From: Acidobacteriota bacterium
GTDB lineage: Bacteria > Acidobacteriota > Vicinamibacteria > Vicinamibacterales > 2-12-FULL-66-21
Length of the DNA stretch: 45,930 nt
Direction of reading: 5' to 3'
Assembly: GCA_046735635.1 (NCBI GenBank)
Contig: JBKPTT010000167.1
Location: forward strand, 1-45,930
The notes under the pieces are model-generated. The model had not been told where the DNA came from. It saw only the letters and a program-made list of their open reading frames with translations, and did not search any database. Within the stretch, counting starts at the first letter, position 1, and each line of letters opens with the position of its first letter. The position numbers and the translations under genes were made by a program. This document shows, piece by piece, positions 1 through 15,115 of this stretch.

Positions 1-33
1 GGAAATCCGGGATCTGACCGCATACTAAGGCGC

Positions 34-315
34 ATGGCGCAGGTGTCTCTCGATAGCCGGGTCGTCATTCACGAGGATGCGGTGTTCCGCGAACTCGATG
101 GGGAAGCGGTCATCCTTCAGCTCGAGGCGGGGATGTATTTCGGCCTCGATCCCGTCGGCACGCGGCTCTGGCAGCTGATCGAGTCACACGGCGAGCTCCG
201 TCCCGTGCTGGATGCTGCGGTTGCCGAATTCGACGTCGAGCGCGACGTTCTCGCACGCGATCTTCTCGAGCTCGTGGGCGGTCTCGCCGATAAGCATCTC
301 GTGGTGGTTCAATGA
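34..315 (+). CDS. Lasso peptide RiPP recognition element (PqqD family, B1 protein)
   Basis: 93 aa with PqqD pattern (FRELDGEAVIL..YFGLDPVGTRLWQLI..DLLELVGGL); overlaps the lasso B2 gene (ATGA). Confidence 0.92.
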   Translation: MAQVSLDSRVVIHEDAVFRELDGEAVILQLEAGMYFGLDPVGTRLWQLIESHGELRPVLDAAVAEFDVERDVLARDLLELVGGLADKHLVVVQ

Positions 316-701
316 CCGATTTGGCGATTCGTGCCGAGGCGCACGCATGTGCCTTCGGCATCCGCATCGCACTTCGGTGCATGTCCATTCCCCGCCTCGT
401 GACCCTCGTGTCTCGGCTCCCTCGAGTGCAGCGTCCGTCGAGCAATGTCGACGAGTGCGTGCGGGCAGCGGAAGAAGCCGCCGGGCGCGTCGCGCACCGG
501 ACGTGTCTCTTCACGGCGTTGACGGCGTTCGCGCTCCTCGCGAGGCGGGGCCATCCAGTCCGCGTCCTCATCGGGGCCGCCCGCGATCACGGGCTGGATG
601 CGCACGCATGGGTCACCGTTTCGGACGTTCCGCTGACCGCGAGCACGCGAGCGTACGAGCCGCTTTGGGCGTCAGGCATTGATTCCCCGCGGATGACGTG
701 A
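312..701 (+). CDS. Lasso peptide leader peptidase (B2, transglutaminase-like)
   Basis: 129 aa with TCL (catalytic Cys), LIGA and AHAWV (catalytic His) motifs; between RRE and cyclase. Confidence 0.9.
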   Translation: MTDLAIRAEAHACAFGIRIALRCMSIPRLVTLVSRLPRVQRPSSNVDECVRAAEEAAGRVAHRTCLFTALTAFALLARRGHPVRVLIGAARDHGLDAHAWVTVSDVPLTASTRAYEPLWASGIDSPRMT

Positions 702-2584
702 TGGGCGGCCTCGCCGCAATTCTTCGATGGGACGGCGCGCCGATCGCCGCCGACGAGCTCCGGCGCGTGGCACAGGCCTCTGCTCACCGGGGTCCCGATG
801 GCATTCGTCTGGTCTCCCGCGCGAATCGGGACGGCGCGTCCCCGACATTTGCCGCGGCGCATCTGCGCTTCGCGACCATCGAGGCTTCCGACGATCTCCA
901 GCCTCTCGAAACCGCGACCGGGATCGTGTTCGTGTTCGACGGGCGTCTGGATAATCGTCTCGAGCTTCTGGAGCGCCTCGATCTGCGTGATGCCGAACCC
1001 ACGGACGCGGCGCTTGCACTGGCAGCCTTCGAGCGGTGGGGCATCGATTCGGCGTCGCAGATGCTTGGCGACTTCGCGTTCGTGGCCTGGGATGCCCCCC
1101 GATCGCGGCTGATATGCGGCCGCGATCATCTGGGCATCCGGCATCTTCATTTCCACGCGTCCGTCCGTTTCGTCGTCTGCGCGACCGATATCGCGCAGGT
1201 GCTGGCGTATGCGGCCGTTCCCCGGGAACCGGATGCGGCGGTCGCGGCGGATTACATCGCATGCGACGTTCGCAACACCGAGCGCACGTTGTATCGCGGC
1301 ATCAAACGTGTCCCGCCCGGCCACGTCGTCGTCGTTGATTCCGCGGGCGTCCGCATCGAGCGTTTCTGGTCCGCCGAGCCGCGAACTCCGATCCGCTACG
1401 CGAGCGACGGCGAATACGCGGCCCACTGCCGCGACCTCCTGACGCGCAGCGTGGCCGCGCGCATGCGCGGTCCGCGCCCGATCGCCGCGATGCTCAGCGG
1501 CGGTCTGGACTCTTCGTCGGTCGTTACGGCCGCGTGGCGACTCGTGCCGACCGACGGCCCGCGACCACAGCCGTTCTCCATGGTCTTTCCCGACCATGCC
1601 GAATCGGACGAGCGCCTGTTTCTCCGCGCGATCGCCGAGCACTGCGGTACGAGCGTGGTCGAAGTTTTTCCGGATTCGATCACCGCTCAAGCGCTGGTCG
1701 GCCAGGCACGTGCGTGGACGGCCACGCCGGCAATGCCGGCTGATGAAATGGCCGCCACGTTGTACGCGGCGATGCGCACGCGAGGGTATCGAGCCACGTT
1801 GACCGGTGCCGGCGGAGACTTCCTGTTCACCGGCAGCGTGTTTCAATACGCGGATCTGCTTCGTGAGCTCAGGCCGGCCGCGGCCGTGCGCCGCTTCGTG
1901 GACGACTGGTATGCCGGAGAAACCGGCCGGAGCCCGCTCGGCCTGCTGCAGCACGGGGTGTGGCCGCTGCTGCCCGTTCCGGTGAAGAACACGCTGCGCC
2001 CTTTCGCCAGACGTCTGATCTCGTACACGGATCACCCGAAGTGGCTGCGGATCGCGCGCACGCCCGCCGAGGAACTGCCCGAGCCGCCCCGCGGCGGCAG
2101 CTTCGCAACCGAAGAAGTGACACGGCAGCTCGGGTGCGGGATGCACGCGTTCTTCGTGGAATGCGCCGAGCGCTACGCCGCTCACGCGGGGATCGAATTA
2201 CGGCATCCGCTGCTCGATCGGCGCCTCGTGCAGTTCGCACTCGACATACCCGACACGCAACGCAAGCGCGGCAGATTTACCAAGTTCATTCTGCGGCAGG
2301 CGCTCGCGGACGATCTTGCGGAACCGGTGCGTCAAAGGCGCACGAAAGGAGATTTCTCGCACGCGGTCGCCCAAGCCATCGAGGCGCTCGGTGGAGAGCG
2401 GTTTTTCGCGGCGCTGCAGATTGCCGAGGCGGGCTGGGTAGATGGCGGTATGGTCGCCGCGAAATACCGCACGATGCGCCGCCAGTATCCGCGCGGATCG
2501 CAGGTCTACGGAGATCACGTGCCGGCGCTGTGGATGATCACCGCGGTCGAGCTGTGGTACCGATCAGCGTTCGGCCGCCTATAA
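701..2584 (+). CDS. Lasso peptide cyclase (asparagine-synthetase-like, C protein)
   Basis: HRGPDG, GRLDNR, GDFAF, RDHLG, SGGLDSS ATP motif, LTGAGGD, PLLDRRLVQF; N-terminal Ntn Cys replaced by Gly (MGGLA) as in lasso cyclases; ATG 701 overlaps B2 stop (GTG 698 alternative). Confidence 0.92.
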   Translation: MGGLAAILRWDGAPIAADELRRVAQASAHRGPDGIRLVSRANRDGASPTFAAAHLRFATIEASDDLQPLETATGIVFVFDGRLDNRLELLERLDLRDAEPTDAALALAAFERWGIDSASQMLGDFAFVAWDAPRSRLICGRDHLGIRHLHFHASVRFVVCATDIAQVLAYAAVPREPDAAVAADYIACDVRNTERTLYRGIKRVPPGHVVVVDSAGVRIERFWSAEPRTPIRYASDGEYAAHCRDLLTRSVAARMRGPRPIAAMLSGGLDSSSVVTAAWRLVPTDGPRPQPFSMVFPDHAESDERLFLRAIAEHCGTSVVEVFPDSITAQALVGQARAWTATPAMPADEMAATLYAAMRTRGYRATLTGAGGDFLFTGSVFQYADLLRELRPAAAVRRFVDDWYAGETGRSPLGLLQHGVWPLLPVPVKNTLRPFARRLISYTDHPKWLRIARTPAEELPEPPRGGSFATEEVTRQLGCGMHAFFVECAERYAAHAGIELRHPLLDRRLVQFALDIPDTQRKRGRFTKFILRQALADDLAEPVRQRRTKGDFSHAVAQAIEALGGERFFAALQIAEAGWVDGGMVAAKYRTMRRQYPRGSQVYGDHVPALWMITAVELWYRSAFGRL

Positions 2585-2598
2585 TGCGCAGCGGGAGG
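2580..2598 (+). promoter_or_regulatory. Candidate internal -10 box (TATAAT 2580-2585) and RBS (GGAGG 2594-2598) for the precursor gene
   Basis: Perfect TATAAT in high-GC DNA, overlapping the cyclase stop; GGAGG 6 nt before ATG 2605. Confidence 0.45.
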
Positions 2599-2604
2599 TC
2601 GGCC

Positions 2605-2775
2605 ATGCCGGATGAAACACCGCGTGGCGGCGGCAAGTCGGCCGCCGGCCAGGGGAAGCGGCCGTACTCGAAGCCGAAATTAATCGAGTACGGATCGGTC
2701 GCGAAGCTCACGCAGGGTACGCGAACCAAACAAGCGGACACGCCGGCCGCAGGGTTCCGCAAAGTGTGTCTCTAG
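2605..2775 (+). CDS. Lasso peptide precursor (A), 56 aa
   Basis: MPDETPRGGGKSAAGQGKRPYSKPKLIEYGSVAKLTQ|GTRTKQADTPAAGFRKVCL: YxxPxL..G leader motif, Thr at -2, Gly1 core start, Asp8 acceptor; GGAGG RBS; it is the C-terminal part of track ORF 1960..2775. Confidence 0.9.
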   Translation: MPDETPRGGGKSAAGQGKRPYSKPKLIEYGSVAKLTQGTRTKQADTPAAGFRKVCL

Positions 2776-3905
2776 TCGTCGACGAGCACCGCCAGTATCT
2801 TTCCGATTCCGCCCGCCTCGAAGCGTACCGCCGCGCCATTCGCGAAGTCGTCCGGCCGGGAATGGCCGTCGCCGATCTCGGCAGCGGCACCGGGATCCTC
2901 GGCCTGTTCGCCTTGCAGGCTGGCGCCGCGCGCGTCTACTCGATCGAGGCAACCGGCATGATCGAGATCGCCCGCGCTGTCGCGGCGGCAAATGGATTCG
3001 GCGATCGCTTCCACGGCGTTCAACGGCATTCGCAGGAGGCGGACCTGCCGGAGCGAGTCGACGTCGTGATATCGGACTTCGTCGGACGATTCGGGTTCGA
3101 TGCCGACATTCTCGAGCTCTACTCTGACGCCGTCGCGAGATTGTTGAAACCCGACGGCACGCTGATGCCCTCCCAGATTGTCCTTGGCGTCGCGCCGGTC
3201 GAGCGCGTGGACATGGACGCACAGGTCCGCTTCTGGAATGCGCAGAAGGCGGGGATCGATCTTTCGCCCGCCTCGGAATGGGCCGTGAACACCGGGTACC
3301 CGGTCGCGCTGGAGTCCGGCGACTTGCTCGCCGATGCTGCCGATGTGATTGCTATCGACCTCCCGTCCCGGCCAGAAACGCCCCTGCGCGCCGCGGCGAA
3401 CTTCCCAATACGCCGTGCCGGGAACCTCCATGGAATCGGCGGCTGGTTTTCCGCGGCTCTTTCGCCTTCCGTGAGCATTACGAATTCGCCGCTGGCTGCT
3501 GACCGGCTGGGCCGCCGGAATGTCTTCTTGCCGCTCGGTGATCCGTGGTCGGCCACCGTCGGCGAATGCGTGCAGCTTTCACTGACCATCCTCCCCAATC
3601 AACACATCGTCAACTGGACGGTAACCCGCTCGAAGGCGGATGGCGCGATATCGCACCAGCGTCACTCGACGATGCGCGGCATGCTGACGAGCCGTGACGA
3701 CCTCGCACGCACGAGACCTGATTTCGTTCCCGAGCTGACTCCGCGGGGTCGCGGCCGTTTGACGCTGCTGCAACTCTGTGATGGCAGGCGCGCGTTGAGT
3801 GAGGTCGAGTCGGAGATGTTCGCGCGCCATCCGGATCTCTTCACCTCGTACGCTGACGCGGCGGCCTTCGTTGCCGAGGTAATTGCCGGGTACACGAAGC
3901 CATGA
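2766..3905 (+). CDS. Protein-arginine-methyltransferase (PRMT)-fold SAM methyltransferase with C-terminal PqqD/RRE-like segment
   Basis: HRQYLSDSARLEAYRRAI, DLGSGTGILGLFALQAGAARVYSIE, LPERVDVVISDFVG, LKPDGTLMP and HGIGGWF follow PRMT motif order; tail LLQLCDGRRALSEV resembles PqqD helices. Confidence 0.8.
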   Translation: MSLVVDEHRQYLSDSARLEAYRRAIREVVRPGMAVADLGSGTGILGLFALQAGAARVYSIEATGMIEIARAVAAANGFGDRFHGVQRHSQEADLPERVDVVISDFVGRFGFDADILELYSDAVARLLKPDGTLMPSQIVLGVAPVERVDMDAQVRFWNAQKAGIDLSPASEWAVNTGYPVALESGDLLADAADVIAIDLPSRPETPLRAAANFPIRRAGNLHGIGGWFSAALSPSVSITNSPLAADRLGRRNVFLPLGDPWSATVGECVQLSLTILPNQHIVNWTVTRSKADGAISHQRHSTMRGMLTSRDDLARTRPDFVPELTPRGRGRLTLLQLCDGRRALSEVESEMFARHPDLFTSYADAAAFVAEVIAGYTKP

Positions 3906-4819
3906 CGCTGTACCACGCATACGGGCGCGTTGTGTCGAGCGACATTCCGCTTCCAGAGCTGCCCGTTACTACGGGAGGCGAGGCGGACATCGAGCTCACG
4001 TGGAATGCGCTCGACCGAACAGCCCGGGGGCCATGGACCGTCCTGTGGCGGTTTTCATCGGGTGAGCCATGGGTGAGCACGTCTCGGGCGGATGGCCTCA
4101 CGCACCTGAGGTTTAGCAAGTTCGCGGACTGTGCCGTGTCACCACGGCACATCGCGGTCTGCCGGCGCGGTCATGCCGCACAGGCCACGCTGCGGCATCT
4201 CGTTCTCGACCAGGCGCTGCCGCTCGTGCTCGCGGCTCGCGGCTGCCTCGTGGTTCACGCGAGCGCCGTCACCGACGGGACGCGTGCGTTCGTGATCGCG
4301 GGAACCGCGGGTGCGGGCAAATCGACGTTGGCTGCTCTGCTCGCGCGAACCGGCCTGAAGGTTCTTGCCGATGATGGGGTTGTGATCGAACGTGTAGGTG
4401 GAAGAGTTGTAGCGGTGCCGTCGTATCCCGGACTCCGCCTATATTCCGACTCGGCGATCGCAGCGGATCTGGTAATCGAAGACGGCACCGACGTTGCTGA
4501 GTACAGCCGCAAGCTGCGATTCTTCGCATCTCGACGTGCCGAGGACGCCGTTGAATCCATTCCGTTATCGGCGATTTATGTATTGCACCCCTCCGTCGGC
4601 TGCGTCAGCGTTCAGGCGCTGTCGCAACGCGACGCCGCGATTGCCGTACTGGCGCAATCGTATCGTCTCGATCCCGGCGATCCGCGGGCATTGGTGGCCG
4701 AGTTGGACCGTATCATCGCGATCGCTCCTCCCGCCTGGCGGCTCTCGTACCCACGGGACCTCCTCCGCGCCGCCGAAGTGGTTTCCGCACTCTTGTCGCA
4801 TGCCGCGTCGTTGCCCTGA
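3902..4819 (+). CDS. HPr-kinase-like P-loop kinase (paeninodin-type lasso peptide kinase family)
   Basis: VHASAV, GTAGAGKSTL Walker A, LADD, and PGLRL motifs; in lasso cluster. Confidence 0.8.
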   Translation: MTLYHAYGRVVSSDIPLPELPVTTGGEADIELTWNALDRTARGPWTVLWRFSSGEPWVSTSRADGLTHLRFSKFADCAVSPRHIAVCRRGHAAQATLRHLVLDQALPLVLAARGCLVVHASAVTDGTRAFVIAGTAGAGKSTLAALLARTGLKVLADDGVVIERVGGRVVAVPSYPGLRLYSDSAIAADLVIEDGTDVAEYSRKLRFFASRRAEDAVESIPLSAIYVLHPSVGCVSVQALSQRDAAIAVLAQSYRLDPGDPRALVAELDRIIAIAPPAWRLSYPRDLLRAAEVVSALLSHAASLP

Positions 4820-4821
4820 CG

Positions 4822-5460
4822 ATGCCACTGCACGTTGCGAGCACCGAAGCCCGTTACGTTCCGAGTTCGGAGGAACGCGTCACGTTTCAGCGGCAGCACT
4901 GGGTCCGTCTGTCCGGATTTCTGGAAGTTCGGCTTCTCGACCGTGTCGTCAAGGAGATCGCGCGGGCTGTATTCGACGAAACGGCTCATCGCTCCGTCGC
5001 CGAGAGATCTGTCGATCTCAGATCGATCGGTTGTGCCGCCTCCGAGGTCCTCGTTCTTGTGTGCAACGACCCGGTCGTGCTGCGAGGGATCGAGGACATT
5101 ACAGGTTGCCGGCCCCTGACGCGATTCAACGGCTCCATTTACCGCATGACGGAACAGTCGGGTCATCAGCAGGCCTGGCACGATGATCTGGTGGATGGCC
5201 GCCGCGTGACGTTGAGCGTCAACCTGGGCGCGGGCTATCGCGGAGGCGAGCTCCAACTGAGGCAACGCGGTGCGGCGCGCGCGTTTGCCGTAGTGCCGAA
5301 TACCTGTCCGGGCGATGCGGTCTTGTTCAGGCTCGATGAGTCGATTGAACACCGTGTGACGCCGGTCACGAGTGGCGTCAAGACGGCGTTCGCCGGATGG
5401 TTCCGTCGTGGCAGACCGCTCCGCGACGAGCTCAAGCGCAGTGTAGAGTTGGTCACGTGA
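4822..5460 (+). CDS. 2OG-Fe(II) oxygenase (prolyl-hydroxylase-like), paralog 1
   Basis: WHDD (HxD), SVNL..YRGGEL, PGDAVLF, EHRVTPV, KTAFAGWF. Confidence 0.85.
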   Translation: MPLHVASTEARYVPSSEERVTFQRQHWVRLSGFLEVRLLDRVVKEIARAVFDETAHRSVAERSVDLRSIGCAASEVLVLVCNDPVVLRGIEDITGCRPLTRFNGSIYRMTEQSGHQQAWHDDLVDGRRVTLSVNLGAGYRGGELQLRQRGAARAFAVVPNTCPGDAVLFRLDESIEHRVTPVTSGVKTAFAGWFRRGRPLRDELKRSVELVT

Positions 5461-5465
5461 TGATT

Positions 5466-5531
5466 CGCGGCTCGCCCGCCTTCGCCTCCCGAGGCTTCGG
5501 CGTGGCAGGCTTGTTCGCGATTCGCGGTTCG
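5466..5531 (-). repeat. Dispersed 66-bp intergenic repeat, copy 1 (CGAACCG heptamers plus GC hairpin)
   Basis: Reverse complement matches 13008-13073 at 56/66 nt without gaps (manual alignment). Confidence 0.75.
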
Positions 5532-5588
5532 CGGTTCGGTTCGGCGCGGTCGCGGTTCGCACGTAGCAGTTCGTAATCCAAAGAGGCT

Positions 5589-6428
5589 ATGGCCCAAGAC
5601 ATCGACGTTCTTACAGCCCCCACACTCAAGAACCTTCGCACCCGCTGGTGGGACGATGCGTTTACGGCGTTCGTGCGGGAGACGGTGCAGCCTCGTCCCG
5701 GGCGCAGGATCCTGGACGTCGGATGCGGGATCGGTACTGCCGAAGTGAATCTTGGACGGCTGCCGCTTACGCAGGTGACGCTCGTCGGCATCGACCATGT
5801 CGTCGAACGCGTGGTGGAAGCGCACGCGTCGGTTCGCTCTCACAATATTCGGGCCGCGTTTGCGGCGGCCGACGCATGCGGCTTGCCATTCTCGGACGGC
5901 GCGTTCGACTCCGTTTTCTGTGTCGCGCTGCTTCAACACATTGCCGACGTCGGGGAGGCGGTTCGCGAGATCGCGCGCGTGACCCGTCCCGGCGGGCGCA
6001 TCGTCGCCGTCGAACCAGACAACTCGGCCCGATATTTCTACAGCTCGTCGCCCGCCGGCATGCGCGCCTACGAGTTGTCTGGACAATTCTTTTCCGGCCT
6101 CATCGAGCGCGGGGACGCGACCGACCCGGCAGTCGGGCCAAAGCTGCCCGCGCTCTTCGCGAGTTGCGGGATCCACCTCTCGGGCGTGCAGCTTTTTCCC
6201 GTGTCGCGTGCGCAGCTCGGCGCGCCGCCGCCCGCAGTCTGGACGGCGAGGCGCCAGGCGATCGAGCACGCGATTTCGAAAGCCGGCGACGTGGGGTTGA
6301 GACGTCTGGGACAGGACTATCTGAAACTCCTCGACGCGTACGCCGAGGAGGCAAAGGCCGCGGGCCCTGCGTTCGTCGAGTTGCAGAATACGATGCTGTT
6401 TGCGACTCTCGGGCAGCGCGAGGAGTAG
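5589..6428 (+). CDS. Class I SAM-dependent methyltransferase
   Basis: ILDVGCGIG, GID, DACGLPFSDGAFD, RVTRPGG. Confidence 0.88.
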   Translation: MAQDIDVLTAPTLKNLRTRWWDDAFTAFVRETVQPRPGRRILDVGCGIGTAEVNLGRLPLTQVTLVGIDHVVERVVEAHASVRSHNIRAAFAAADACGLPFSDGAFDSVFCVALLQHIADVGEAVREIARVTRPGGRIVAVEPDNSARYFYSSSPAGMRAYELSGQFFSGLIERGDATDPAVGPKLPALFASCGIHLSGVQLFPVSRAQLGAPPPAVWTARRQAIEHAISKAGDVGLRRLGQDYLKLLDAYAEEAKAAGPAFVELQNTMLFATLGQREE

Positions 6429-6436
6429 CGGGCTGC

Positions 6437-7075
6437 ATGCTGATGCAGATCGACCGAGCGGGAACGCGCCTCGAGCTCGAGGGCGCGGAGATCGCGCGGG
6501 CGCACTTCGATCGACATCATTGGTTGAAGCTGCCCAAACTGCTCACAGCGCCGACGCTGAGCGACGTCCGGCGGCAGCTTGCGAGCGCCGCGTTCGTTGA
6601 AGTCCGACACACCAATGTGACGCCGCCGTCGATCGACGTTTGCCTGGAGCCGAACGCGTTGTCGGCGATGCTCGAGCTGTTCTGCAATGATCCGGTCGTG
6701 CTCGGCGCCGTCGAGGCGTTGACCGGATGTGCGCCGCTCGTGCGTTTCGACGGGTTCGTCTATCGACTCGCCCCGGGGGGCGGACATCATCACAACTGGC
6801 ACAACGACGTGCTGCAGGGGCGTCGGGTCGCAATGAGCATCAACCTGGAAGTCCGGCCCTACGAGGGCGGCAAGCTGCTGATTCGTGCGCGTCACACCGA
6901 ATGCGTGCTCGCGGAGGTCGAGAACACCGGCCCCGGCGATGCCGTGCTCTTCCGGATCGATCCGGCACTCCAGCATCGTGCGACGACCGTCACGCAGGGC
7001 ACGAAGACGGCCTTCGCGGGATGGTTCCGGTCGGAAGCGCCACTGCGCGCCGCGCTCGCGCAGGGCATCGCGTGA
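6437..7075 (+). CDS. 2OG-Fe(II) oxygenase, paralog 2
   Basis: C-terminal 212 aa of track ORF 5648..7075; WHND, SINL..YEGGKL, PGDAVLF, QHRAT, KTAFAGWF; start ATG 6437 or 6443. Confidence 0.85.
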   Translation: MLMQIDRAGTRLELEGAEIARAHFDRHHWLKLPKLLTAPTLSDVRRQLASAAFVEVRHTNVTPPSIDVCLEPNALSAMLELFCNDPVVLGAVEALTGCAPLVRFDGFVYRLAPGGGHHHNWHNDVLQGRRVAMSINLEVRPYEGGKLLIRARHTECVLAEVENTGPGDAVLFRIDPALQHRATTVTQGTKTAFAGWFRSEAPLRAALAQGIA

Positions 7076-8394
7076 TCGTCAGCGATCTGCACGACGCTGC
7101 CCTGTCCGCCTGGCGCGACGCCGGCGTACGCGATCGCGTGCTGATTCATGTCGATGCGCATCACGACGCTGATTCACGCGAGTGGGACTTCGTGACCATC
7201 TCGAACTTCGTCTGGTGGGCGATGTCGGAAGGGATCGTCCGCGAGGTGTATTGGGTGGTTCCGGAGCCAAGCTGGCGAATGTCCTCCAGACCTGCAATGA
7301 TTGCGGACGCGCTGCTGGCGCTCGCGCGTCAGCACGATTCATCGGCGGGCGTCGAGGTGAACGCGTATGGCTTCACGACGGAAGTGGCCGGCAAACGGTT
7401 CACCGCCTGTCCGCTCTCGCGTTTGCCGCCCTTAGCCGGCGCGCTCCTGGACATCGACATCGACTACTTCCTCATCGCAGACATTGCCGCCGAGAGGCCG
7501 CCGGTTGATCGCACGGCGCCGTGGATGTGGCCGGTCGACCTGCTGCACGCACTCAAGGGGTTGGAGACCGACCCTACGATCGTCACGATTGCCACGTCCA
7601 CACGCGGCGGATTCACCCCGCTCGAGTGGAAATATCTCGGAGACGAACTGGCAGCGCGGCTGTCAGGCGCACCGGTTGAGGGCTACGACCGCATTCGCGG
7701 TGGATTCGAGGCGGAGTGCCGGGCCGACGGCGATGTGGCCGAGGAGCATTATCGGCGCGCGATGGAACTGATGCCGGTGAGTCCAGGACCGGCGTATCGT
7801 TTGGCGCTTCTCCATCTTGCTCGCGGAGCCGACCGGGAAGCGCGCCGCCTCTTCGGCGCTGTCCTCGAACGCGATTCGACGTACCGAGGTCCAGACTCGA
7901 GGGCACGGCGATGGCACGATCTTGGAGACGTGATCCGTGCGCGGCAGGGATACGTCGACCTTCTCCGGCTCGATCCGTCCAATCCGTACGCGGAGCTCGG
8001 AATCGCGCAGCTTGCTGCTGACCGCGATGATCATCCGGCGGCGATTGCACACTTCGAACGTGCGCTGGCTGTTTGCGGCACGCTCGTCGACGCGGAACGC
8101 GGGATTGCGCAATCGTTCGAACGAGTCGGCGAACGCGATCGAGCCGCGCGGCATTACGCGCGATCCATTGAGCTGGAGCTCGGCGGCCACGCGCCATTGT
8201 CCGCGCCGATTGCGAGTTGCCCGCCCCGGGTGCTCGATGACACCCACTGGGAGAATCATCGGCGTCTCGCGCGGCTTCGGGGAGACGACCGCTGGCTCCG
8301 GGCGGTCGATCACGTGGCACCTTCTGAGCCGCCGCGGCGGCAGGCATCGCCTAGCACTGCTTTACCAGATCGCGGGCGAACAGCTGAGTCATGA
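7072..8394 (+). CDS. UPF0489/peptide-arginase-like metallohydrolase fused to TPR repeats
   Basis: GTG 7072 overlaps upstream TGA; LIHVDAHHD, TISNFV, LLDIDIDYF, STRGGFTP; C-terminal TPR-like helices (AEEHYRRAMELMP, LRLDPSNPYAELGIAQL, AIAHFERALA). Confidence 0.75.
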   Translation: MIVSDLHDAALSAWRDAGVRDRVLIHVDAHHDADSREWDFVTISNFVWWAMSEGIVREVYWVVPEPSWRMSSRPAMIADALLALARQHDSSAGVEVNAYGFTTEVAGKRFTACPLSRLPPLAGALLDIDIDYFLIADIAAERPPVDRTAPWMWPVDLLHALKGLETDPTIVTIATSTRGGFTPLEWKYLGDELAARLSGAPVEGYDRIRGGFEAECRADGDVAEEHYRRAMELMPVSPGPAYRLALLHLARGADREARRLFGAVLERDSTYRGPDSRARRWHDLGDVIRARQGYVDLLRLDPSNPYAELGIAQLAADRDDHPAAIAHFERALAVCGTLVDAERGIAQSFERVGERDRAARHYARSIELELGGHAPLSAPIASCPPRVLDDTHWENHRRLARLRGDDRWLRAVDHVAPSEPPRRQASPSTALPDRGRTAES

Positions 8395-8601
8395 TCTCGC
8401 GCGGAGGTCGCGGAGATCGCGGAGATTCCGGACCGCGTGCGGGTCTCTCCCCCTTGTCGCGCCACGCGCGACGTGGCGAACGCACAACCCTCCGCGTTCT
8501 CAGCGTCCTCGGCGCGAGATCCGTGCGATCTCCGCGCGAGATCAGTGCCTTCCCTGCGAGAGCACTCTCTCGCACCTCGGATCTGACAAAGTAGAGTCTA
8601 G
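8351..8601. mobile_element. MITE-like element with imperfect terminal inverted repeats bounded by CTAG
   Basis: CTAGCACTGCTTTACCAGATC ... GATCTGACAAAGTAGAGTCTAG; internal CGCGGAG/CTCCGCG repeats; related shorter copy at 40495-40585. Confidence 0.5.
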
Positions 8602-9374
8602 TGGCGAAGCAGGGCTGGGAAGGATGGGACGAGTACGCGCCGTTCTATGACTGGGAGAACGCGCGCACCGTCGCACGCCGCGACGTCGCATTCTGGCAGC
8701 GGCTGGCGGCCGCGCAGTCCGGGTTCGTCCTCGAGCTCGGGTGCGGGACAGGCCGCATTGCCGTCCCGGTTGCGCGCGCGGGCGCCCGGCTGATCGGGGT
8801 CGATCGATCCGCGCAGATGCTCGCCCGCGGGCGTCAGCGCCTGCGCCGCGCACGGCTCGCCGGCCGCGCCTCGCTCGTCCGCGGCGACATTCGTTTCCTG
8901 CCGTTCCGATCCCGACCGGGGTTCGACCTCGTGATGGCGCCGTACGGCATCCTTCAGTCGCTCACCCGCGAAGGCGACCTGAAAGCCACGCTGCAATCGG
9001 TCGCGCGGGTGCTCCGCCGCGGCGGGCTTTTCGGCATCGACCTCGTGCCTGATCTGCCTCGCTGGACCGAATACGAAGGACGCACCAGCATGACCGGCAG
9101 GAAAGGCAGGAGCACGCGCGTCACGCTCGTGGAATCAGTCCGGCAGGATCGCGGCCGGCGTCTGACCATCTTCGATCAGGAGTACATCGAGCAACGCGCA
9201 CGCGAACGTCGTGTCCATCGATTCACGCTCACGTTCCGCACGCTGTCGGTCCCGCAGATGACACGTCGCCTCGAAGCAGCGGGCTTCCGGGTCACTGCCG
9301 TGCTCGGCGACTACCGCGGCGGTCCGTGGGATGCCCGCGCCGACGTCTGGGTCATCATCGCGGAGCGCCGCTGA
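8601..9374 (+). CDS. Class I SAM-dependent methyltransferase
   Basis: YAPFYD, VLELGCGTGRI, GVDRSAQML, RGDIR, LRRGG. Confidence 0.88.
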   Translation: MAKQGWEGWDEYAPFYDWENARTVARRDVAFWQRLAAAQSGFVLELGCGTGRIAVPVARAGARLIGVDRSAQMLARGRQRLRRARLAGRASLVRGDIRFLPFRSRPGFDLVMAPYGILQSLTREGDLKATLQSVARVLRRGGLFGIDLVPDLPRWTEYEGRTSMTGRKGRSTRVTLVESVRQDRGRRLTIFDQEYIEQRARERRVHRFTLTFRTLSVPQMTRRLEAAGFRVTAVLGDYRGGPWDARADVWVIIAERR

Positions 9375-10015
9375 TGCTGCAGGTCGGCATCAACCGCGTC
9401 TTTCTTCCCACCGACGCGGATATTCGCGAGTGGCGCGCGTGCTACGCCGAATCTCTTTGCATTCGACTGCCGGAATTCTTCGACGCACGCCTCGTGACGT
9501 GGCTGCGATCGCGGCTCGCGGGTGCCGCGTTTCAGGAACGGGTTCACGCGGGAATCGATCCTCCTCCCGTCGATCTCGCCCTGGCCGATCGCGCCCTTCT
9601 GGCACTGGTCACGACCCTCGTGAACGACAGTGGCGTGTTCAACACTGTTCGCGCCGTCAGCGGTTGCGATCCGATCGGCTGCTACGAGGGAATCATTTAT
9701 CGGATGGAGCCCGGGGGACATCACCACGACACGTGGCATGGGGACATCGACGGGAATCGCATGGTGACGTTGAGCGTCAACCTCGGCGATCCATACGAAG
9801 GCGGCAGGTTACAGATTCGCGAGCGGTCGTCGGGCAGGCTCGTGCACGAAGCAGCCAACACACGGGCGGGTGATGCCATTCTGTTCGCGCTCGGGGACGA
9901 CCTCGAACATCGTGTCACCGAGGTGACAGGCGCCATGCCGAAGCTCGCGCTGGCCGGCTGGTTCCAGCGCCGGCCCGCGGCGCTCCTTGCGCTGAAGCGC
10001 CGGATGGGAGCCTGA
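9374..10015 (+). CDS. 2OG-Fe(II) oxygenase, paralog 3
   Basis: ATG 9374 overlaps upstream TGA; WHGD, SVNL..YEGGRL, GDAILF, EHRVT, KLALAGWF. Confidence 0.85.
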   Translation: MLQVGINRVFLPTDADIREWRACYAESLCIRLPEFFDARLVTWLRSRLAGAAFQERVHAGIDPPPVDLALADRALLALVTTLVNDSGVFNTVRAVSGCDPIGCYEGIIYRMEPGGHHHDTWHGDIDGNRMVTLSVNLGDPYEGGRLQIRERSSGRLVHEAANTRAGDAILFALGDDLEHRVTEVTGAMPKLALAGWFQRRPAALLALKRRMGA

Positions 10016-10032
10016 AAGACGCCGCAATCGTG

Positions 10033-10041
10033 TGGTAACAT
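10033..10041 (+). promoter_or_regulatory. Candidate extended -10 promoter for the yebC-ruv operon
   Basis: TGGTAACAT about 40 nt upstream of the yebC ATG. Confidence 0.4.
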
Positions 10042-10081
10042 CAACGGTCATTTTTTCGCATCCAAATCGGGAGTTTTTGCC

Positions 10082-10831
10082 ATGTCCGGCCATTCCAAAT
10101 GGCACACCATCAAGCACAAGAAAGGGGCGGCCGACGCCAAGCGCGGGAAGATCTTCACGCGCATCATCAAGGAGTTGACCGTCGCGGCCCGCAGCGGCGG
10201 CGGTGATCCCGACAGCAATCCGCGTCTCCGCACCGTCGTCGCCGAAGCGAAGTCGGTCAACATGCCGGCCGACAACATCAAGCGCGCCATCCAGCGAGGC
10301 ACCGGTGAACTGCCTGGCGTTTCGTACGAAGAAATCAACTACGAGGGCTACGGCCCTGGGGGCGCCGCGATCATCGTCGAGACGCTGACCGACAACAAGA
10401 ATCGCACCGTCGGCGAGATCCGCCACGTCTTTTCGAAGCACGGCGGGAACCTCGCCGCGGAAAACGCCGTCGCGTGGATGTTCGACAAAAAGGGCTACAT
10501 CGTGGTCGAGAAGGCGAAAGGCGACGAGGAAACGCTCATGGCCGCCGCGATCGATGCGGGCGCCGACGACATGCGCGACGATGGGGACAGCTGGGAAATC
10601 GTGTCGGCGCCCGACGCGTTCCAGAAGGTGCTCGATGCGGTCAAAGGCCTCGGGATCGAGCCTGCGGCTGCGGAAGTGGCGTTGCTGCCGCAGAACTACG
10701 TCAAGCTCGAAGGGAAGCAGGCCCAGCAGATGGTGAAGCTGATGGAGGCGCTCGAAGACCACGACGACACCAAGAAAGTGTGGTCGAACGCCGACATCGA
10801 AGAGAAGGAGATCGAGGCCTCTTTGGCGTGA
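10082..10831 (+). CDS. yebC: YebC/PmpR family protein
   Basis: MSGHSKWHTIKHKKG, YEGYGPGG, TDNKNRT. Confidence 0.97.
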   Translation: MSGHSKWHTIKHKKGAADAKRGKIFTRIIKELTVAARSGGGDPDSNPRLRTVVAEAKSVNMPADNIKRAIQRGTGELPGVSYEEINYEGYGPGGAAIIVETLTDNKNRTVGEIRHVFSKHGGNLAAENAVAWMFDKKGYIVVEKAKGDEETLMAAAIDAGADDMRDDGDSWEIVSAPDAFQKVLDAVKGLGIEPAAAEVALLPQNYVKLEGKQAQQMVKLMEALEDHDDTKKVWSNADIEEKEIEASLA

Positions 10832-11370
10832 AGATCTTCGGGATCGATCCCGGTTCCGATCGAACGGGGTACGGCTGCATCGAGACGCTCGGCAGCCGCC
10901 ACCATCTTGTGATTTGCGGCGCCCTTTCGTCCCCAGCCCGCTGCACGTTCCCCGAAAAGCTCAAGCACATCCACTTCGGTCTCGCGACGCTGCTCGCGCG
11001 GCATCGTCCTGACTGCGTGGCGGTGGAGAACGTCTTTCACGCGCGCAACGTGCGCAGTGCGCTGAAGCTCGGGCACGCGCGGGGAGTGGCGCTGCTGGCC
11101 GCCTGTGAGGCAGGCATTCCGGTCGTCGAGTATGCGCCGGCCGAAATCAAGCGCGCGGTGGTCGGGTTCGGACGGGCCGAGAAGATACAGGTGCAGCAGA
11201 TGATCAAGCTGCTGCTTGGGCTCGATGCGATCCCTGCGCCCCACGACGCCGCCGACGCGCTCGCGGTGGCCATCTGCCACGTGCACAGCGCGACCGGAGC
11301 GATCGCCGAGCGTTCTGCCCCGGAGAAGTCTCACAGCGCGCTTCGCTCCTGGAGAGACTACCGACCGTGA
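10828..11370 (+). CDS. ruvC: Crossover junction endodeoxyribonuclease RuvC
   Basis: GTG 10828; IFGIDPGS..TGYG, VENVF, LGHARGV, DAADALAVAICH. Confidence 0.96.
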   Translation: MKIFGIDPGSDRTGYGCIETLGSRHHLVICGALSSPARCTFPEKLKHIHFGLATLLARHRPDCVAVENVFHARNVRSALKLGHARGVALLAACEAGIPVVEYAPAEIKRAVVGFGRAEKIQVQQMIKLLLGLDAIPAPHDAADALAVAICHVHSATGAIAERSAPEKSHSALRSWRDYRP

Positions 11371-11969
11371 TTGCGCTGTTGCGCGGCCAGCTGCTTGAAA
11401 AGAATCCGAACCGGTTGATCGTCGATGTCGGCGGCGTCGGGTACGACGTGCAGGTGCCGCTGTCGACGTTCTACGTCGTCGGTGAGCCGGGCGCCGATAT
11501 CATGCTGCGCGTGCACACACACGTGCGCGAGGACCTCATCGCGCTCTATGGCTTCGCGACGCGGCTCGAACAGGATCTCTTCGAGCGGCTCATCGCGATC
11601 AGCGGCATCGGTCCGAAGCTGGCGCTGGCGGTGCTGTCGGGGATCGAGCCCGGTGACTTCGTCAAGGCGATCCGCCTGCAGGACGTTGCGCGCTTGACGG
11701 CGATCCCGGGCGTCGGGAAAAAGACAGCCGAGCGAATCGGCCTCGAGATGAAGGACCGGCTTCCCGCGGCGTTGCAGGCAATGGGCCAGGACACTGCGAG
11801 GGCGACGCCCCGAGATCGGCTGCGCGACGACCTCCTTTCGGCGCTGATGAACCTGGGGTACCAGCGTGCGATTGCGGAGAAGGCGATTGAGAAGACGCTC
11901 GGCGGCAATGGGGATGCGCCATTCGAGCAGACGCTGCGCGACGTGCTGCGGTCGCTGATGAGGACATGA
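11367..11969 (+). CDS. ruvA: Holliday junction branch migration protein RuvA
   Basis: [43 protein letters not shown]. Confidence 0.97.
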
Positions 11970-12982
11970 AAGAGGATCGGATCGTCACGGCGTCCGGCGA
12001 CGAGAACGATCGGCAGTACGAAGCCGGGCTGCGGCCGCGCACCCTCGACGAGTACATCGGCCAGGAGCGCGTCCGGGAGAATCTGCATGTCTCGATCACG
12101 GCGGCGGCGCAGCGCGGCGAAGCGCTCGACCACGTCCTGCTCTACGGCCCGCCCGGACTCGGCAAGACCACGCTCGCGACGATCATCGCAAACGAGCTCG
12201 GCGTGCCAATTCGATCGACGGCGGGCCCCGTCATCGAGAAGCCAGGCGATCTGGCCGCGATGTTGACCAACCTTCAGGAGCGAGAGGTGCTCTTCATCGA
12301 CGAAGTGCATCGGATGAATCCCGCGATTGAAGAGATTCTGTACCCGGCGATGGAGGATTACGAGCTCGACATCATGATCGGGCAAGGCCCCAGCGCGCGG
12401 TCGGTGAAAGTCCCCGTCCAGCGGTTCACGCTCATCGGCGCGACGACGCGTACTGGGCTCCTGACATCGCCGCTTCGTGCGCGATTCGGCATCGTCCACC
12501 GTCTCGATTTCTACAGCGAGGAGAACATTCTCGAAATCGTCCAACGTTCCGCCCGCATCCTTGGCGTCCCGATCGATCGGGAGGCCGCTGTGGAGATCGC
12601 GAAACGCGCTCGGGGGACACCGCGTGTCGCCAACCGGCTGCTGCGGCGCGTGCGCGATTACGCGCAGGTCCGCGCGAACGGGCACATCAGCGTGGAGGTC
12701 GCGCATCGCGCGTTGTCGCTGCTCGAAGTCGACGAGCACGGCTTCGACGAGATCGATCGCCGCCTGCTCCGAACGGTTATCGAGAAGTTCAGCGGCGGGC
12801 CGGTCGGCGTGGCGAGCCTTGCCGCGGCGATGAGCGAGGAGCGTGATGCCATCGAGGACATTTACGAGCCGTTTCTGATCCAAATCGGGTTTTTGGACCG
12901 CACGCCGCGAGGGCGCGTGGCCACGGCCAAGGCGTACGAGTACTTCGGGCTCGACGCCCCTGGAAAGGATCGTTTGTGGTGA
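11966..12982 (+). CDS. ruvB: Holliday junction branch migration helicase RuvB
   Basis: [50 protein letters not shown]. Confidence 0.98.
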
Positions 12983-13007
12983 AGGCCGACCAGCGTACCG
13001 GGAACGC

Positions 13008-13073
13008 CGAATCGCGAACCGCGAACCAGGCCGCCGCGCTGAAGCCTCCGGATGCGAAGGCGGGCGAACCGCG
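13008..13073 (+). repeat. Dispersed 66-bp intergenic repeat, copy 2
   Basis: 56/66 identity to the reverse complement of 5466-5531. Confidence 0.75.
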
Positions 13074-13083
13074 TCTCCGACAC

Positions 13084-14064: not shown

Positions 14065-14131
14065 CGCTGCACGCGCCGACGGCTCACGAGACGCGAAGAC
14101 ACGAAGCTCACGAAGAGCACGAAGACTAATT

Positions 14132-14140
14132 TGGTACAAT
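14132..14140 (+). promoter_or_regulatory. Candidate extended -10 promoter upstream of the mod remnant
   Basis: TGGTACAAT about 33 nt before TTG 14174, with AGGGG RBS between. Confidence 0.4.
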
Positions 14141-14173
14141 CCTCCCGCTTTCCACCACCAGCAGGGGACTCTA

Positions 14174-14404: not shown

Positions 14405-14500
14405 CTACCACAGGGTCAAACCGGCGAAATAGTCGGCGCTGTCGGCCTTTCTGTTGATGTCTACTGGAAAGTAGATTGTTCTGAACACATGATGGTAGAC

Positions 14501-14523
14501 TAGAATGTAACAGAAACGTCACA
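14501..14523 (+). promoter_or_regulatory. Candidate -10 (TAGAAT) and palindromic operator (TGTAAC-N6-GTCACA) of the TA operon
   Basis: Imperfect inverted repeat directly before the antitoxin ATG. Confidence 0.4.
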
Positions 14524-15112: not shown

Positions 15113-15115
15113 TTC

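What the first reader, a model, noticed from the sequence alone, without database searches (positions are those of the whole stretch)
2605..2775. Hidden lasso precursor with a cationic core and a lone Cys
Seen: an RBS-preceded 56-aa ORF buried in track ORF 1960..2775, with leader motif YSKPKL..G, Thr(-2) and core GTRTKQADTPAAGFRKVCL. Inference: an 8-residue Gly1-Asp8 macrolactam, with Phe14/Arg15 as candidate plug residues. The single unpaired Cys18 is unusual and could form a dimer or be modified. The gene sits after the cyclase and overlaps the PRMT start, suggesting translational coupling to the tailoring block.
Basis: partly seen in the sequence, partly recalled or inferred. Interest (0 to 1): 0.8.

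Follow-up and report, generated by a model that had tools for sequence, protein, structure and literature searches.

The report
Lasso peptide precursor ending Cys-Leu
The small gene is a genuine lasso-peptide precursor from a soil Acidobacteriota-type bacterium, and its odd lone cysteine belongs to a Cys-Leu ending shared by a large, unstudied group of lasso peptides whose gene clusters carry an arginine-methyltransferase-like enzyme.

Summary
Observation confirmed. ORF 2605..2775 (+), 56 aa, follows a GGGAGG ribosome-binding site. It scores above NCBIfam's cut-off for the lasso leader family NF033521 (28.1 bits, cut-off 19). It has Tyr-17/Pro-14/Leu-12/Thr-2 and sits between the cyclase gene and a PRMT-fold methyltransferase gene, which it overlaps by 10 nt.

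Fifty-one metagenomic homologues keep Gly1, Thr2 and Asp8 invariant, and Cys18 and Leu19 in at least 90%. Across 127 unique, otherwise variable cores from related loci, every core has Asp/Glu at position 7-9 (position 8 alone in 109). This supports a Gly1-Asp8 ring.

New here: 96 of those 127 cores end in Cys-Leu, and Cys occurs almost only at that position. The order C-A-PRMT-like-HprK-like recurs in Acidobacteriota, Nitrospira, Methylomirabilota and others. Cys-Leu was found in 87 of 105 cores next to the PRMT-like gene and in 0 of 5 where that gene is absent. A tree-aware test was underpowered (4-5 independent contrasts), so the link is suggestive only.

The modification chemistry, the lasso threading and the plug residues are untested. 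My open-access literature searches found no paper linking lasso peptides with PRMT-type enzymes. Verdict: a real precursor, and a new variant of a known kind.

The parts
2593..2598 (+). Shine-Dalgarno-like GGGAGG, 6 nt before the ATG
   Evidence: sequence
2605..2775 (+). Precursor gene A (56 aa plus TAG stop)
   Evidence: NF033521 28.1 bits against cut-off 19; 51 homologues
2605..2715 (+). Leader peptide, 37 aa. The N-terminal ~18 aa are variable and the rest is conserved
2665..2682 (+). YSKPKL = YxxPxL recognition motif (Tyr-17, Pro-14, Leu-12)
   Evidence: positions; Y21, P24 and L26 are invariant; motif as described for BsfA in PMC10368454 (passages)
2710..2712 (+). Thr(-2) codon
   Evidence: T36 invariant; invariant T in 127 sequences
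2716..2772 (+). Core peptide GTRTKQADTPAAGFRKVCL (19 aa, pI 10.05; predicted dehydrated monoisotopic mass 2001.06 Da)
2716..2739 (+). Predicted macrolactam ring, Gly1 to Asp8
   Evidence: G38 and D45 invariant; D/E at position 7-9 in 127 of 127 unique related cores, at position 8 alone in 109. Ring formation itself is inferred
2767..2772 (+). C-terminal Cys18-Leu19, the class-wide motif
   Evidence: >=90% in the close family; 96 of 127 unique cores end in CL, and only one core has an additional Cys outside the position second from the C-terminus
34..315 (+). B1, PqqD-like RRE chaperone, the first gene of the operon. The contig begins just upstream
   Evidence: PF05402 53.8 bits; in close homologue loci the genes upstream of B1 are divergent EPS genes
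312..701 (+). B2 leader peptidase (transglutaminase-like)
   Evidence: NF033537 51.8 bits against cut-off 33; PF13471
698..2584 (+). C, lasso cyclase (asparagine-synthase-like)
   Evidence: PF00733 154.5 bits; NF033535 321.6 bits, below its 525 cut-off
2766..3905 (+). PRMT-fold methyltransferase with an extra C-terminal three-helix domain. Its GTG start overlaps gene A by 10 nt
   Evidence: profile against PDB: PRMT6/8/2/1 at E~1e-45; AF2 pLDDT 92.8; Foldseek TM 0.65-0.84 to PRMTs; C-terminal domain best match PqqD, Z 6.7
3902..4819 (+). HprK-like peptide kinase homologue
   Evidence: TIGR04352/TIGR04355 at E~1e-9, below cut-offs; H119-G134-G137-G139-K140-S141-D157-D158 has the same spacing as the BsfK motif
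4822..10015 (+). Further tailoring block: 2OG-Fe(II) oxygenase 4822-5460, class-I MT 5589-6428, oxygenase 6437-7075, TPR protein 7072-8394, class-I MT 8601-9374, oxygenase 9326-10015
   Evidence: the same genes occur in close homologue loci L069, L070, L073 and L074

Best explanation
ORF 2605..2775 is the precursor gene (A) of a lasso peptide. It lies in a single-strand operon with the order B1, B2, C, A, PRMT-fold methyltransferase, HprK-like kinase, then three 2OG oxygenases, two class-I methyltransferases and a TPR protein. Shown at sequence level: the leader has the canonical Tyr-17/Pro-14/Leu-12/Thr-2 elements that B1/B2 recognise, and the core starts with Gly and has its only acidic residue at position 8. 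Inferred: B1 binds the leader, B2 cuts after Gln-1, and C joins the Gly1 amine to the Asp8 side chain. This would give an 8-residue ring with an 11-residue tail (TPAAGFRKVCL) and a net cationic product. G13-F14-(K/R)15 is the likeliest region held in the ring. Also inferred: the conserved C-terminal Cys-Leu marks the whole cluster class and is most likely the handle or acceptor for the PRMT-fold enzyme encoded by the overlapping gene, for example by methylation at or next to Cys18. That enzyme carries a PqqD/RRE-like helical domain, so it probably acts on the leader-bearing precursor. The kinase homologue has intact catalytic residues and may phosphorylate Thr2 or Thr4. My odds: genuine lasso precursor about 0.9; Gly1-Asp8 ring about 0.8; the Cys-Leu end as the site or handle of the PRMT-like enzyme about 0.4.
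For: NF033521 scores above its cut-off. B1, B2 and C families lie directly upstream. Motif spacing is -17/-14/-12/-2, as described for BsfA (passages). There are 51 homologues with G1, T2 and D8 invariant and C18 and L19 at >=90%. Substitutions are mostly synonymous. D/E occurs at position 7-9 in 127 of 127 unique cores, and 96 of 127 end in CL. Among the 148 parsed of the 150 best-scoring 50%-identity representatives, 117 end in CL, although the profile itself contained the CL columns. Gene A lies directly upstream of the PRMT-like gene in 88 of 95 loci. CL occurs in 87 of 105 cores in loci with the PRMT-like gene and in 0 of 5 cores in loci without it. On a cyclase tree CL never changed against PRMT presence. 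Many CL cores have no Arg or Lys, so a core arginine cannot be the conserved substrate. In the PRMT-like enzymes the first Glu of the double-E loop is an invariant Asp, and the THW loop is replaced by a loop with an invariant Arg. The C-terminal domain's best structural match out of 48,161 chains is PqqD, and two lasso B1 proteins are in the top 10. The kinase motif is intact.
Against: No product has been observed, so ring formation, threading, plug residues and every modification are inference. The CL-PRMT link rests on related clusters. The tree-aware test found only 4-5 independent contrasts (sign test p 0.25-0.5). Eighteen of 105 cores next to a PRMT-like gene lack CL. The PqqD-like match has a middling Z (6.7) for a small helical domain, and profile-profile comparison with the cluster's own B1 proteins found nothing (probability 0.1%). 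The acidic PRMT-type pocket would suit a nitrogen nucleophile better than a thiol or a carboxylate (my reasoning). The window's own core does contain Arg3, Arg15, Lys5 and Lys16. The cyclase and B1 score below NCBIfam's strict cut-offs for their named lasso models.
Confidence: 0.8

Rival explanations
1. The peptide is a lasso precursor, but the Cys-Leu end serves the mature peptide's function (a free thiol for metal binding, redox chemistry, covalent target capture or dimerisation). The PRMT-fold enzyme then does what PRMTs normally do and methylates Arg, or Lys, in the core (R3, R15, K5 or K16 here).
For: The enzyme is a clear PRMT homologue (E~1e-45; fold) with the N-terminal H-x5-D-x2-R motif and an acidic active-site loop conserved. 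This core has two Arg and two Lys. Tails in the wider family are rich in Met, averaging 12% of tail residues. Together with Cys this resembles soft-metal ligands (my reading). A few PRMT-linked cores end in MMR followed by I, L or A, with Arg second from the end.
Against: Many cores next to the PRMT-like gene contain no Arg or Lys at all, for example GASMFGFDGTMMQMTCL and SGSITGGDSMGMTMACL. The canonical double-E and THW residues are altered. The window's own tail has no Met.
Confidence: 0.3
2. The peptide is cyclised Gly1-Asp8 but is not threaded (a branched-cyclic product), or the steric lock is not at Phe14/Arg15.
For: Nothing computed here tests topology. The tail is only 11 residues long.
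Against: G13-F14 is conserved at >=90% and position 15 is K/R in the close family. A G-(F/M)-(K/R/M) element recurs at a similar distance from the ring in distant cores. The machinery is a standard B1/B2/C set.
Confidence: 0.15
3. Translation starts at the in-frame ATG at 2584, which overlaps the cyclase stop as TAATG. This gives a 63-aa precursor with the same core.
For: The ATG is in frame. A 63-aa form is called on 3 contigs in public gene sets (P0002).
Against: There is no purine-rich site in front of 2584, whereas GGGAGG sits 6 nt before 2605. Most homologues are 52-60 aa long and begin with M-x-D-(E/D) at the 2605 position.
Confidence: 0.1
4. The ORF is a chance open frame, or the tail of the longer ORF 1960..2775, and encodes nothing.
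For: High-GC DNA has many spurious ORFs (106 ORFs of >=30 aa in the first 9 kb).
Against: The HMM hit is above its cut-off. There are 51 homologues and conserved synteny. Change is mostly synonymous. The upstream part of the long ORF overlaps the cyclase gene in another frame.
Confidence: 0.02

Closest known systems
NCBIfam NF033521 'lasso RiPP family leader peptide-containing protein' (lasso_leader_L3)
   Same: The leader region (residues 21-38) matches the model at 28.1 bits against a cut-off of 19. It has the YxxPxL...T-x-G architecture.
   Different: The model covers only the leader. It says nothing about the core, the Cys-Leu end or the tailoring genes. I found no characterised product of this particular subgroup.
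Phosphorylated lasso peptides with HprK-like kinases: paeninodin, ThcoK and SyanK substrates (review PMC8498205, passages seen)
   Same: Split B1/B2, an HPr-kinase homologue in the cluster, and tailoring of the linear precursor before cyclisation.
   Different: Those kinases act on a C-terminal Ser, whereas this core ends in Leu. The gene order differs, no ABC exporter was seen, and a PRMT-fold gene lies between A and the kinase.
BsfA/BsfK of Bradymonas sediminis (PMC10368454, abstract and passages seen)
   Same: The HprK-like kinase has the motif H-G-G-G-K-S-D-D with identical spacing (H119...D158 here). The site is inside the ring-forming part of the core (Ser3 in BsfA). B1 helps the tailoring enzyme. 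The leader has Tyr-17/Pro-14/Leu-12.
   Different: BsfA has Ile at -2 and Ser at position 3. Here position 3 is Arg, flanked by Thr2 and Thr4. The bsf cluster has a nucleotidyltransferase and an ABC transporter and no PRMT-like gene.
Lassomycin-type C-terminal methyl esters (StspM; review PMC8498205, passages)
   Same: A SAM-dependent methyltransferase next to the precursor gene that acts at the C-terminus of the linear precursor.
   Different: The enzyme here is a PRMT-fold protein. I made no sequence comparison with StspM. A conserved Cys next to the C-terminus is not a feature described for those peptides in the passages I saw.
Eukaryotic type I protein arginine methyltransferases (PRMT6, PRMT1, PRMT2, PRMT8, CARM1)
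   Same: Rossmann domain plus beta-barrel, profile E~1e-45 over residues 6-278, TM up to 0.84 normalised to the target, and the N-terminal H/D/R SAM-binding helix is conserved.
   Different: The first Glu of the double-E loop is an invariant Asp, the second acidic residue is shifted and not invariant, and THW is replaced by a loop with an invariant Arg. There is an extra ~80-aa helical domain resembling the helical half of PqqD. It is encoded in a bacterial RiPP operon.
Microcin J25 (recalled from memory, no call)
   Same: An 8-residue Gly1-to-acidic-8 macrolactam with aromatic plug residues in the tail.
   Different: MccJ25 has fused B, Glu8, a longer loop and no Cys or tailoring genes.

Membership tests
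Lasso peptide precursor (NF033521 leader family) | Leader HMM score above the curated cut-off | tested here: met
   28.1 bits against cut-off 19, E=1.3e-6
Lasso peptide precursor (NF033521 leader family) | YxxPxL motif and Thr at -2 with canonical spacing | tested here: met
   Tyr-17, Pro-14, Leu-12, Thr-2; all invariant
Lasso peptide precursor (NF033521 leader family) | Small first core residue and Asp/Glu at position 7-9 | tested here: met
   Gly1 and Asp8, both invariant in 52 sequences; D/E at 7-9 in 127 of 127 related unique cores
Lasso peptide precursor (NF033521 leader family) | Adjacent B1 (RRE), B2 (peptidase) and C (cyclase) genes | tested here: met
   PF05402, NF033537/PF13471 and PF00733 at 34-2584; synteny conserved
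Lasso peptide precursor (NF033521 leader family) | Macrolactam formed and tail threaded through the ring | not testable with these tools
   Needs expression with MS, heat and carboxypeptidase tests, or NMR
Phosphorylated lasso peptides, paeninodin type | HPr-kinase homologue with catalytic residues in the cluster | tested here: met
   H119, G134, G137, G139, K140, S141, D157, D158 against the BsfK motif. The family HMM hits are weak
Phosphorylated lasso peptides, paeninodin type | C-terminal Ser as phosphate acceptor | tested here: not met
   The core ends in Cys-Leu
Phosphorylated lasso peptides, BsfA type | Ser/Thr at core position 3 | tested here: not met
   Position 3 is Arg. Thr2 is invariant and Thr4 is >=90% conserved, so a nearby site remains possible
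Protein arginine methyltransferase family (for the overlapping neighbour gene) | PRMT catalytic core plus beta-barrel fold | tested here: met
   E~1e-45 to PRMT6/8/2/1; Foldseek probability 1.00, TM 0.65-0.84
Protein arginine methyltransferase family (for the overlapping neighbour gene) | Double-E loop and THW loop that hold the arginine | tested here: not met
   The first Glu is an invariant Asp104. The second Glu aligns to Ala, with an E/D one position earlier that is not invariant. THW aligns to i-d-R with an invariant Arg250
RRE (PqqD-like) domain on the methyltransferase | Winged-helix with three strands and three helices that binds a leader | tested here: inconclusive
   The helical half matches PqqD 3g2b (Z 6.7, rmsd 1.9 A, 50 residues, rank 1 of 48,161), TbiB1 (Z 5.3) and 6jx3 B1 (Z 5.2). 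However, Z is below 8, hhalign against the cluster's B1 proteins gave probability 0.1%, and there was no significant Pfam PqqD hit

The most novel reading that the evidence does not exclude
The Cys-Leu end is the acceptor or docking site for a bacterial PRMT-fold enzyme that has been re-tooled (Glu to Asp, THW loop replaced by an Arg-bearing loop, and an added RRE-like leader-binding domain) to modify a residue at the peptide's C-terminus rather than a protein arginine. This would be a RiPP tailoring reaction not yet described. It would define a very large lasso class (thousands of 50%-identity clusters) in Acidobacteriota, Nitrospira, Methylomirabilota and relatives, whose Met-rich, thiol- or thioether-ended tails might bind soft metals such as copper.
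Probability: 0.35. Interest if true: 0.75.

Novelty: new variant of a known kind. Interest (0 to 1): 0.55.

Why it matters
The precursor by itself is an ordinary, well-supported member of a known RiPP class. The context is what makes it worth following. The conserved gene order B1-B2-C-A-PRMT-like-HprK-like, and an invariant Cys-Leu end on otherwise hypervariable cores, recur across several mostly uncultured soil and water phyla. At least 4,491 representatives at 50% identity match the precursor profile (an upper bound).

My open-access searches found no paper that links lasso peptides with a PRMT-type enzyme. Bacterial PRMT homologues with a defined substrate are scarce (my recollection). Because gene, enzyme and candidate site lie side by side, the question "what does this PRMT-fold enzyme do?" can be tested directly with one co-expression and mass spectrometry. 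This particular cluster adds three oxygenases and two more methyltransferases, so its product may be among the most heavily tailored lasso peptides.

Tried and rejected
1. Complex prediction of the PRMT-like enzyme with the precursor and SAM gave no verdict (score 0.01, mark 0.32). It is not evidence either way.

2. Sequencing runs: no RNA holder was listed, so nothing can be said about expression. I did not lay reads, because only DNA contigs were on offer.

3. Profile-profile comparison of the methyltransferase C-terminal domain with the clusters' B1 proteins gave probability 0.1%. Pfam on 26 such domains gave only insignificant hits (PqqD E=0.21 in one member).

4. The promoter and terminator scan of 1-10300 found 0 promoter-like sites and 7 terminator-like sites, against 6.5 expected. 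This is uninformative.

5. The tree-aware test of the CL-PRMT link used 74 rows bearing both traits. There were 5 changes of PRMT presence and 12 of CL, and 4 independent pairs on supported branches. CL went the same way in 2-3 pairs and never the other way, with p 0.25-0.5. The test is underpowered, so I do not claim statistical support.

6. I looked for active-site covariation between enzymes whose peptides have Arg rather than Cys second from the end. The three MMR(I/L) loci have FGYGAG in place of FGFEAG, and the one that reaches that far has DREQ in place of DRRN. I could not interpret this.

7. Literature searches: 'lasso peptide' with 'arginine methyltransferase' (1 paper, listing only, title on another topic and not opened); with 'PRMT' (2 papers: in the one I opened, the hit was a file name, and the other I saw as a listing only); with 'C-terminal cysteine' and 'methyltransferase' (5 papers, listing only, none about this by title or abstract start); with 'methyltransferase' and 'Acidobacteri' (7 papers, listing only); with phylum names (listing showed no lasso paper among the 20 listed).

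9. A regex scan of the whole genome (307 contigs) and the window found no second precursor of this leader type. The protein search of the window's own genome gave only a chance-level second hit (E=0.47).

Full report
THE OBSERVATION. GGGAGG lies at 2593-2598, followed by 6 nt, ATG at 2605 and TAG at 2773-2775. The 271-aa ORF 1960..2775 is in the same frame and ends with this peptide. Its upstream part runs across the cyclase gene 698..2584, which is in another frame, so the long ORF is an artefact of taking the first start after a stop. The product has 56 aa: a 37-aa leader and the 19-aa core GTRTKQADTPAAGFRKVCL (pI 10.05; four basic residues, one acidic). An in-frame ATG at 2584 overlaps the cyclase stop and would give 63 aa. 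Public gene sets contain both forms: 56 aa on 21 contigs and 63 aa on 3. The homologues begin at the 2605 position. The gene is therefore not hidden from ordinary gene callers, only from a longest-ORF track.

IS IT A GENE, AND WHAT KIND. Residues 21-38 match NCBIfam NF033521, the lasso leader family, at 28.1 bits against a curated cut-off of 19. Tyr, Pro, Leu and Thr sit at -17, -14, -12 and -2. These are the positions named for the BsfA leader in PMC10368454 (passages). Directly upstream on the same strand lie:
- a PqqD-type B1 (PF05402, 53.8 bits);
- a B2 peptidase (NF033537, 51.8 bits against 33);
- an asparagine-synthase-like cyclase (PF00733, 154.5 bits).
The gene junctions overlap by 4 nt, and there are 20 nt between C and A.

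A search of 5.8 billion proteins gave 51 homologues with E<=2e-4. In the alignment of all 52 sequences, Y21, P24, L26, T36, G38 (core Gly1), T39 and D45 (core Asp8) are invariant. Cys55 and Leu56 are kept in at least 90%. The N-terminal third of the leader varies freely. Against four related loci, the 37 codons of motif plus core differ by 13/3, 13/3, 17/3 and 16/5 synonymous/non-synonymous changes. This is a translated gene under purifying selection.

THE RING. Asp8 is the only acidic residue in the core. I extracted precursors from all fetched loci (L003-L147). The search used a leader regular expression, then one residue, then a core running to a stop within 40 aa. This gave 127 unique cores of 10 aa or more, the window's own included. 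All 127 have Asp or Glu at position 7-9. It is at position 8 alone in 109, at 9 alone in 12, at both 8 and 9 in 3, at both 7 and 8 in 2, and at 7 alone in 1. The first residue is G, S, A or T in 121 of the 127. The rest of the core varies. This fixed spacing from Thr-2 is what a Gly1-to-Asp8 macrolactam predicts. Ring formation, threading and the Phe14/Arg15 plug remain inference. G13-F14 is conserved at >=90% and position 15 is K/R in the close family. A G-(F/M)-(K/R/M) element recurs in distant cores.

SURROUNDINGS. The window is a whole 45,930-bp contig, so the operon starts about 30 nt from the contig end. In close homologue loci, the genes upstream of B1 are divergently oriented polysaccharide genes (Wzz/tyrosine-kinase type, Wzy). 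Little of the cluster is therefore likely to be missing. Downstream of A lie:
- a PRMT-fold methyltransferase, 2766-3905;
- an HprK-like kinase, 3902-4819;
- a 2OG-Fe(II) oxygenase, 4822-5460;
- a class-I methyltransferase, 5589-6428;
- a second oxygenase, 6437-7075;
- a TPR protein, 7072-8394;
- a third methyltransferase, 8601-9374;
- a third oxygenase, 9326-10015.
After these come YebC, RuvA and RuvB. I saw no ABC exporter or isopeptidase. The four metagenome loci with the most similar cores and more than 5 kb of sequence (L069, L070, L073, L074) carry the same extra genes.

A WIDESPREAD CLUSTER TYPE. A leader-pattern scan of one genome per species returned 46 loci. Most are titled Acidobacteriota or Vicinamibacterales. 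Others are titled Nitrospira, Methylomirabilota, Binataceae, 'delta proteobacterium' and Betaproteobacteria. A metagenome scan returned 80 more loci. In 88 of the 95 non-redundant loci that have both a precursor and the start of a PRMT-like gene, the precursor lies directly upstream of that gene on the same strand. The two genes overlap by exactly 10 nt in 10 loci, are 0-30 nt apart in 57, 31-120 nt apart in 18, and further apart in 3. The HprK-like gene usually follows.

Within the window's own genus, only 2 of 25 genomes gave a clear match, and 7 of 60 relatives matched at E<=1e-3. The cluster is therefore patchily distributed. A profile of the 127 precursors matched 4,491 representatives at 50% identity at E<=0.001, and 207 at E<=1e-10. 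This is an upper bound, because the profile is short and at least one long repetitive protein is among the hits.

THE CYS-LEU END. Ninety-six of the 127 unique cores end in Cys-Leu, and 2 more end in Cys-Ile. Ninety-seven cores have exactly one Cys, 29 have none, and only one has a second Cys elsewhere. Of the 150 best profile hits, 148 could be parsed, and 117 of those end in Cys-Leu. That count is biased, because the profile contained those columns. The 'lone Cys' is therefore the signature of the class.

Among the 128 unique cores (the window is not counted, and a 5-aa fragment is included):
- 87 of 105 in loci with a PRMT-like gene end in CL;
- 0 of 5 do so in loci that lack the gene, with at least 3.5 kb examined on both sides;
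- 18 cores sit on contigs too short to tell (9 CL, 9 not).

On a cyclase tree of 83 rows, 74 rows bear both traits. PRMT presence changes 5 times and CL changes 12 times. In the 4 independent contrasts on supported branches, CL went the same way in 2-3 and never the opposite way. The sign test cannot reach significance with so few contrasts (p 0.25-0.5). The link is therefore consistent but not demonstrated. One row in all these counts (L003) comes from a genome flagged as unpublished (G023). No claim depends on it.

THE OVERLAPPING ENZYME. A profile of 26 of these methyltransferases matches PRMT6, PRMT8, PRMT2, PRMT1 and CARM1 at E about 1e-45 to 1e-39 over residues 6-278. The AlphaFold model (pLDDT 92.8) superposes on PRMT structures with TM 0.65-0.71 by query and up to 0.84 by target. 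The conserved N-terminus MSL(V/I)xDEHR fixes the GTG start at 2766.

The residues that hold arginine in PRMTs are changed:
- the first Glu of the double-E loop is an invariant Asp104;
- the second Glu aligns to Ala, and the E/D one position earlier is not invariant;
- the THW loop aligns to a loop with an invariant Arg250.

Many cores next to this gene have no Arg or Lys, so a core arginine cannot be the common substrate. The enzyme has about 80 extra C-terminal residues forming three helices. Modelled alone (pLDDT 85), their best match among 48,161 chains is PqqD (3g2b: Z 6.7, rmsd 1.9 A, 50 residues). Two lasso B1 proteins bound to leaders also appear, at Z 5.3 and 5.2. Such Z values are common for small helical domains, and the sequence profiles show no relationship. 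A leader-binding role is therefore a lead, not a result.

MOST LIKELY MECHANISM. The steps below are inferred unless marked otherwise.
- The precursor is translated from 2605.
- B1 binds YxxPxL.
- The tailoring enzymes act on the leader-bearing linear peptide, as reported for StspM, ThcoK, SyanK, CanE and BsfK (passages).
- B2 cleaves after Gln-1.
- C forms the Gly1-Asp8 isopeptide around the tail.
- The PRMT-fold enzyme most probably recognises or modifies the Cys-Leu end. My odds for this step are about 0.4.
- The kinase homologue has the full H-G-G-G-K-S-D-D motif with the spacing of BsfK (shown). It has no C-terminal Ser to act on, so Thr2 or Thr4 are the likeliest sites, by analogy with Ser3 of BsfA.
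- The three oxygenases and two further methyltransferases have no assignable sites.

COMPARISON WITH WHAT IS KNOWN, AND NOVELTY. The peptide is a member of the lasso precursor family NF033521 and passes every sequence-level criterion. It does not fit the paeninodin type (no C-terminal Ser) or the BsfA type (Arg at position 3). The review PMC8498205 (passages seen) lists methyl-ester, phosphate, phosphoglycosyl, citrulline, acetyl, hydroxyl and D-residue tailoring, and no PRMT-type enzyme. My open-access searches linking lasso peptides with arginine methyltransferase or PRMT found nothing relevant: the papers and one were judged from their listings alone, and the other paper was opened (a file-name hit). 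Supplementary tables of large lasso mining studies were not seen and may list these precursors.

I file the finding as a new variant of a known kind. It is a real and otherwise conventional precursor whose conserved Cys-Leu end and PRMT-fold neighbour point to tailoring chemistry not described in the papers I could search.

Noticed in passing
window 4822-10015: There are three paralogous 2OG-Fe(II) oxygenases (PF13640), two class-I methyltransferases and a TPR protein after the kinase gene. The same genes occur in the close homologue loci L069, L070, L073 and L074, while more distant clusters carry only subsets (MT2+MT3, or a single oxygenase). The product may therefore be hydroxylated and methylated several times.
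   Followed up: partly
window 1-10015; L070 1-7400; L073 1-7450: No ABC exporter or lasso isopeptidase gene was seen in the cluster. In close homologue loci the region upstream of B1 holds divergently transcribed Wzz/tyrosine-kinase and Wzy-type polysaccharide genes.
   Followed up: partly
related loci L022-L147 and proteins P0056-P0204: The tails of many related cores are strikingly rich in Met just before the Cys-Leu end (for example ...MMMMCL, ...MMMVCL, ...MGMTMACL). The mean Met fraction of tail residues is 12%. The window's own tail has none. This might point to soft-metal binding in parts of the family.
   Followed up: no
L097, L098, L110, L006: A small group of cores next to a PRMT-like gene end in MMR followed by I, L or A, so Arg replaces Cys at the position second from the C-terminus. 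In three of them (L097, L098, L110) the enzyme has FGYGAG in place of FGFEAG in the double-E-loop region.
   Followed up: partly
window 3669-3902 (residues ~302-379 of the methyltransferase): The extra three-helix C-terminal domain is conserved in all 26 aligned homologues (LCDG and FVAEV motifs). Its best structural match is PqqD and it also matches lasso B1 proteins, though at middling Z.
   Followed up: yes
L026, L036, L038, L079, L096, L111: Several related clusters encode two or three tandem precursor genes with different cores. The window and its genome have only one.
   Followed up: partly
genomes G001-G025 (same genus): Only 2 of 25 same-genus genomes gave a clear match to the precursor. 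The near-identical cluster DNA occurs in soil and rhizosphere metagenome runs from several studies (13 runs with a word share of 0.2 or more). The cluster looks like an accessory, patchily distributed trait of a widespread soil lineage.
   Followed up: partly
clusters of P0001 and P0006: The 90%-identity clusters of the 56/57-aa precursors also contain members of 376 aa and 492 aa. These are probably gene calls that run the small ORF together with a neighbouring frame.
   Followed up: no
window 10082-22522: The rest of the contig looks like ordinary chromosome: YebC, RuvA, RuvB, FabH-like KAS III, a LigD primase-polymerase domain protein and two alpha-amylase-family proteins.
   Followed up: partly
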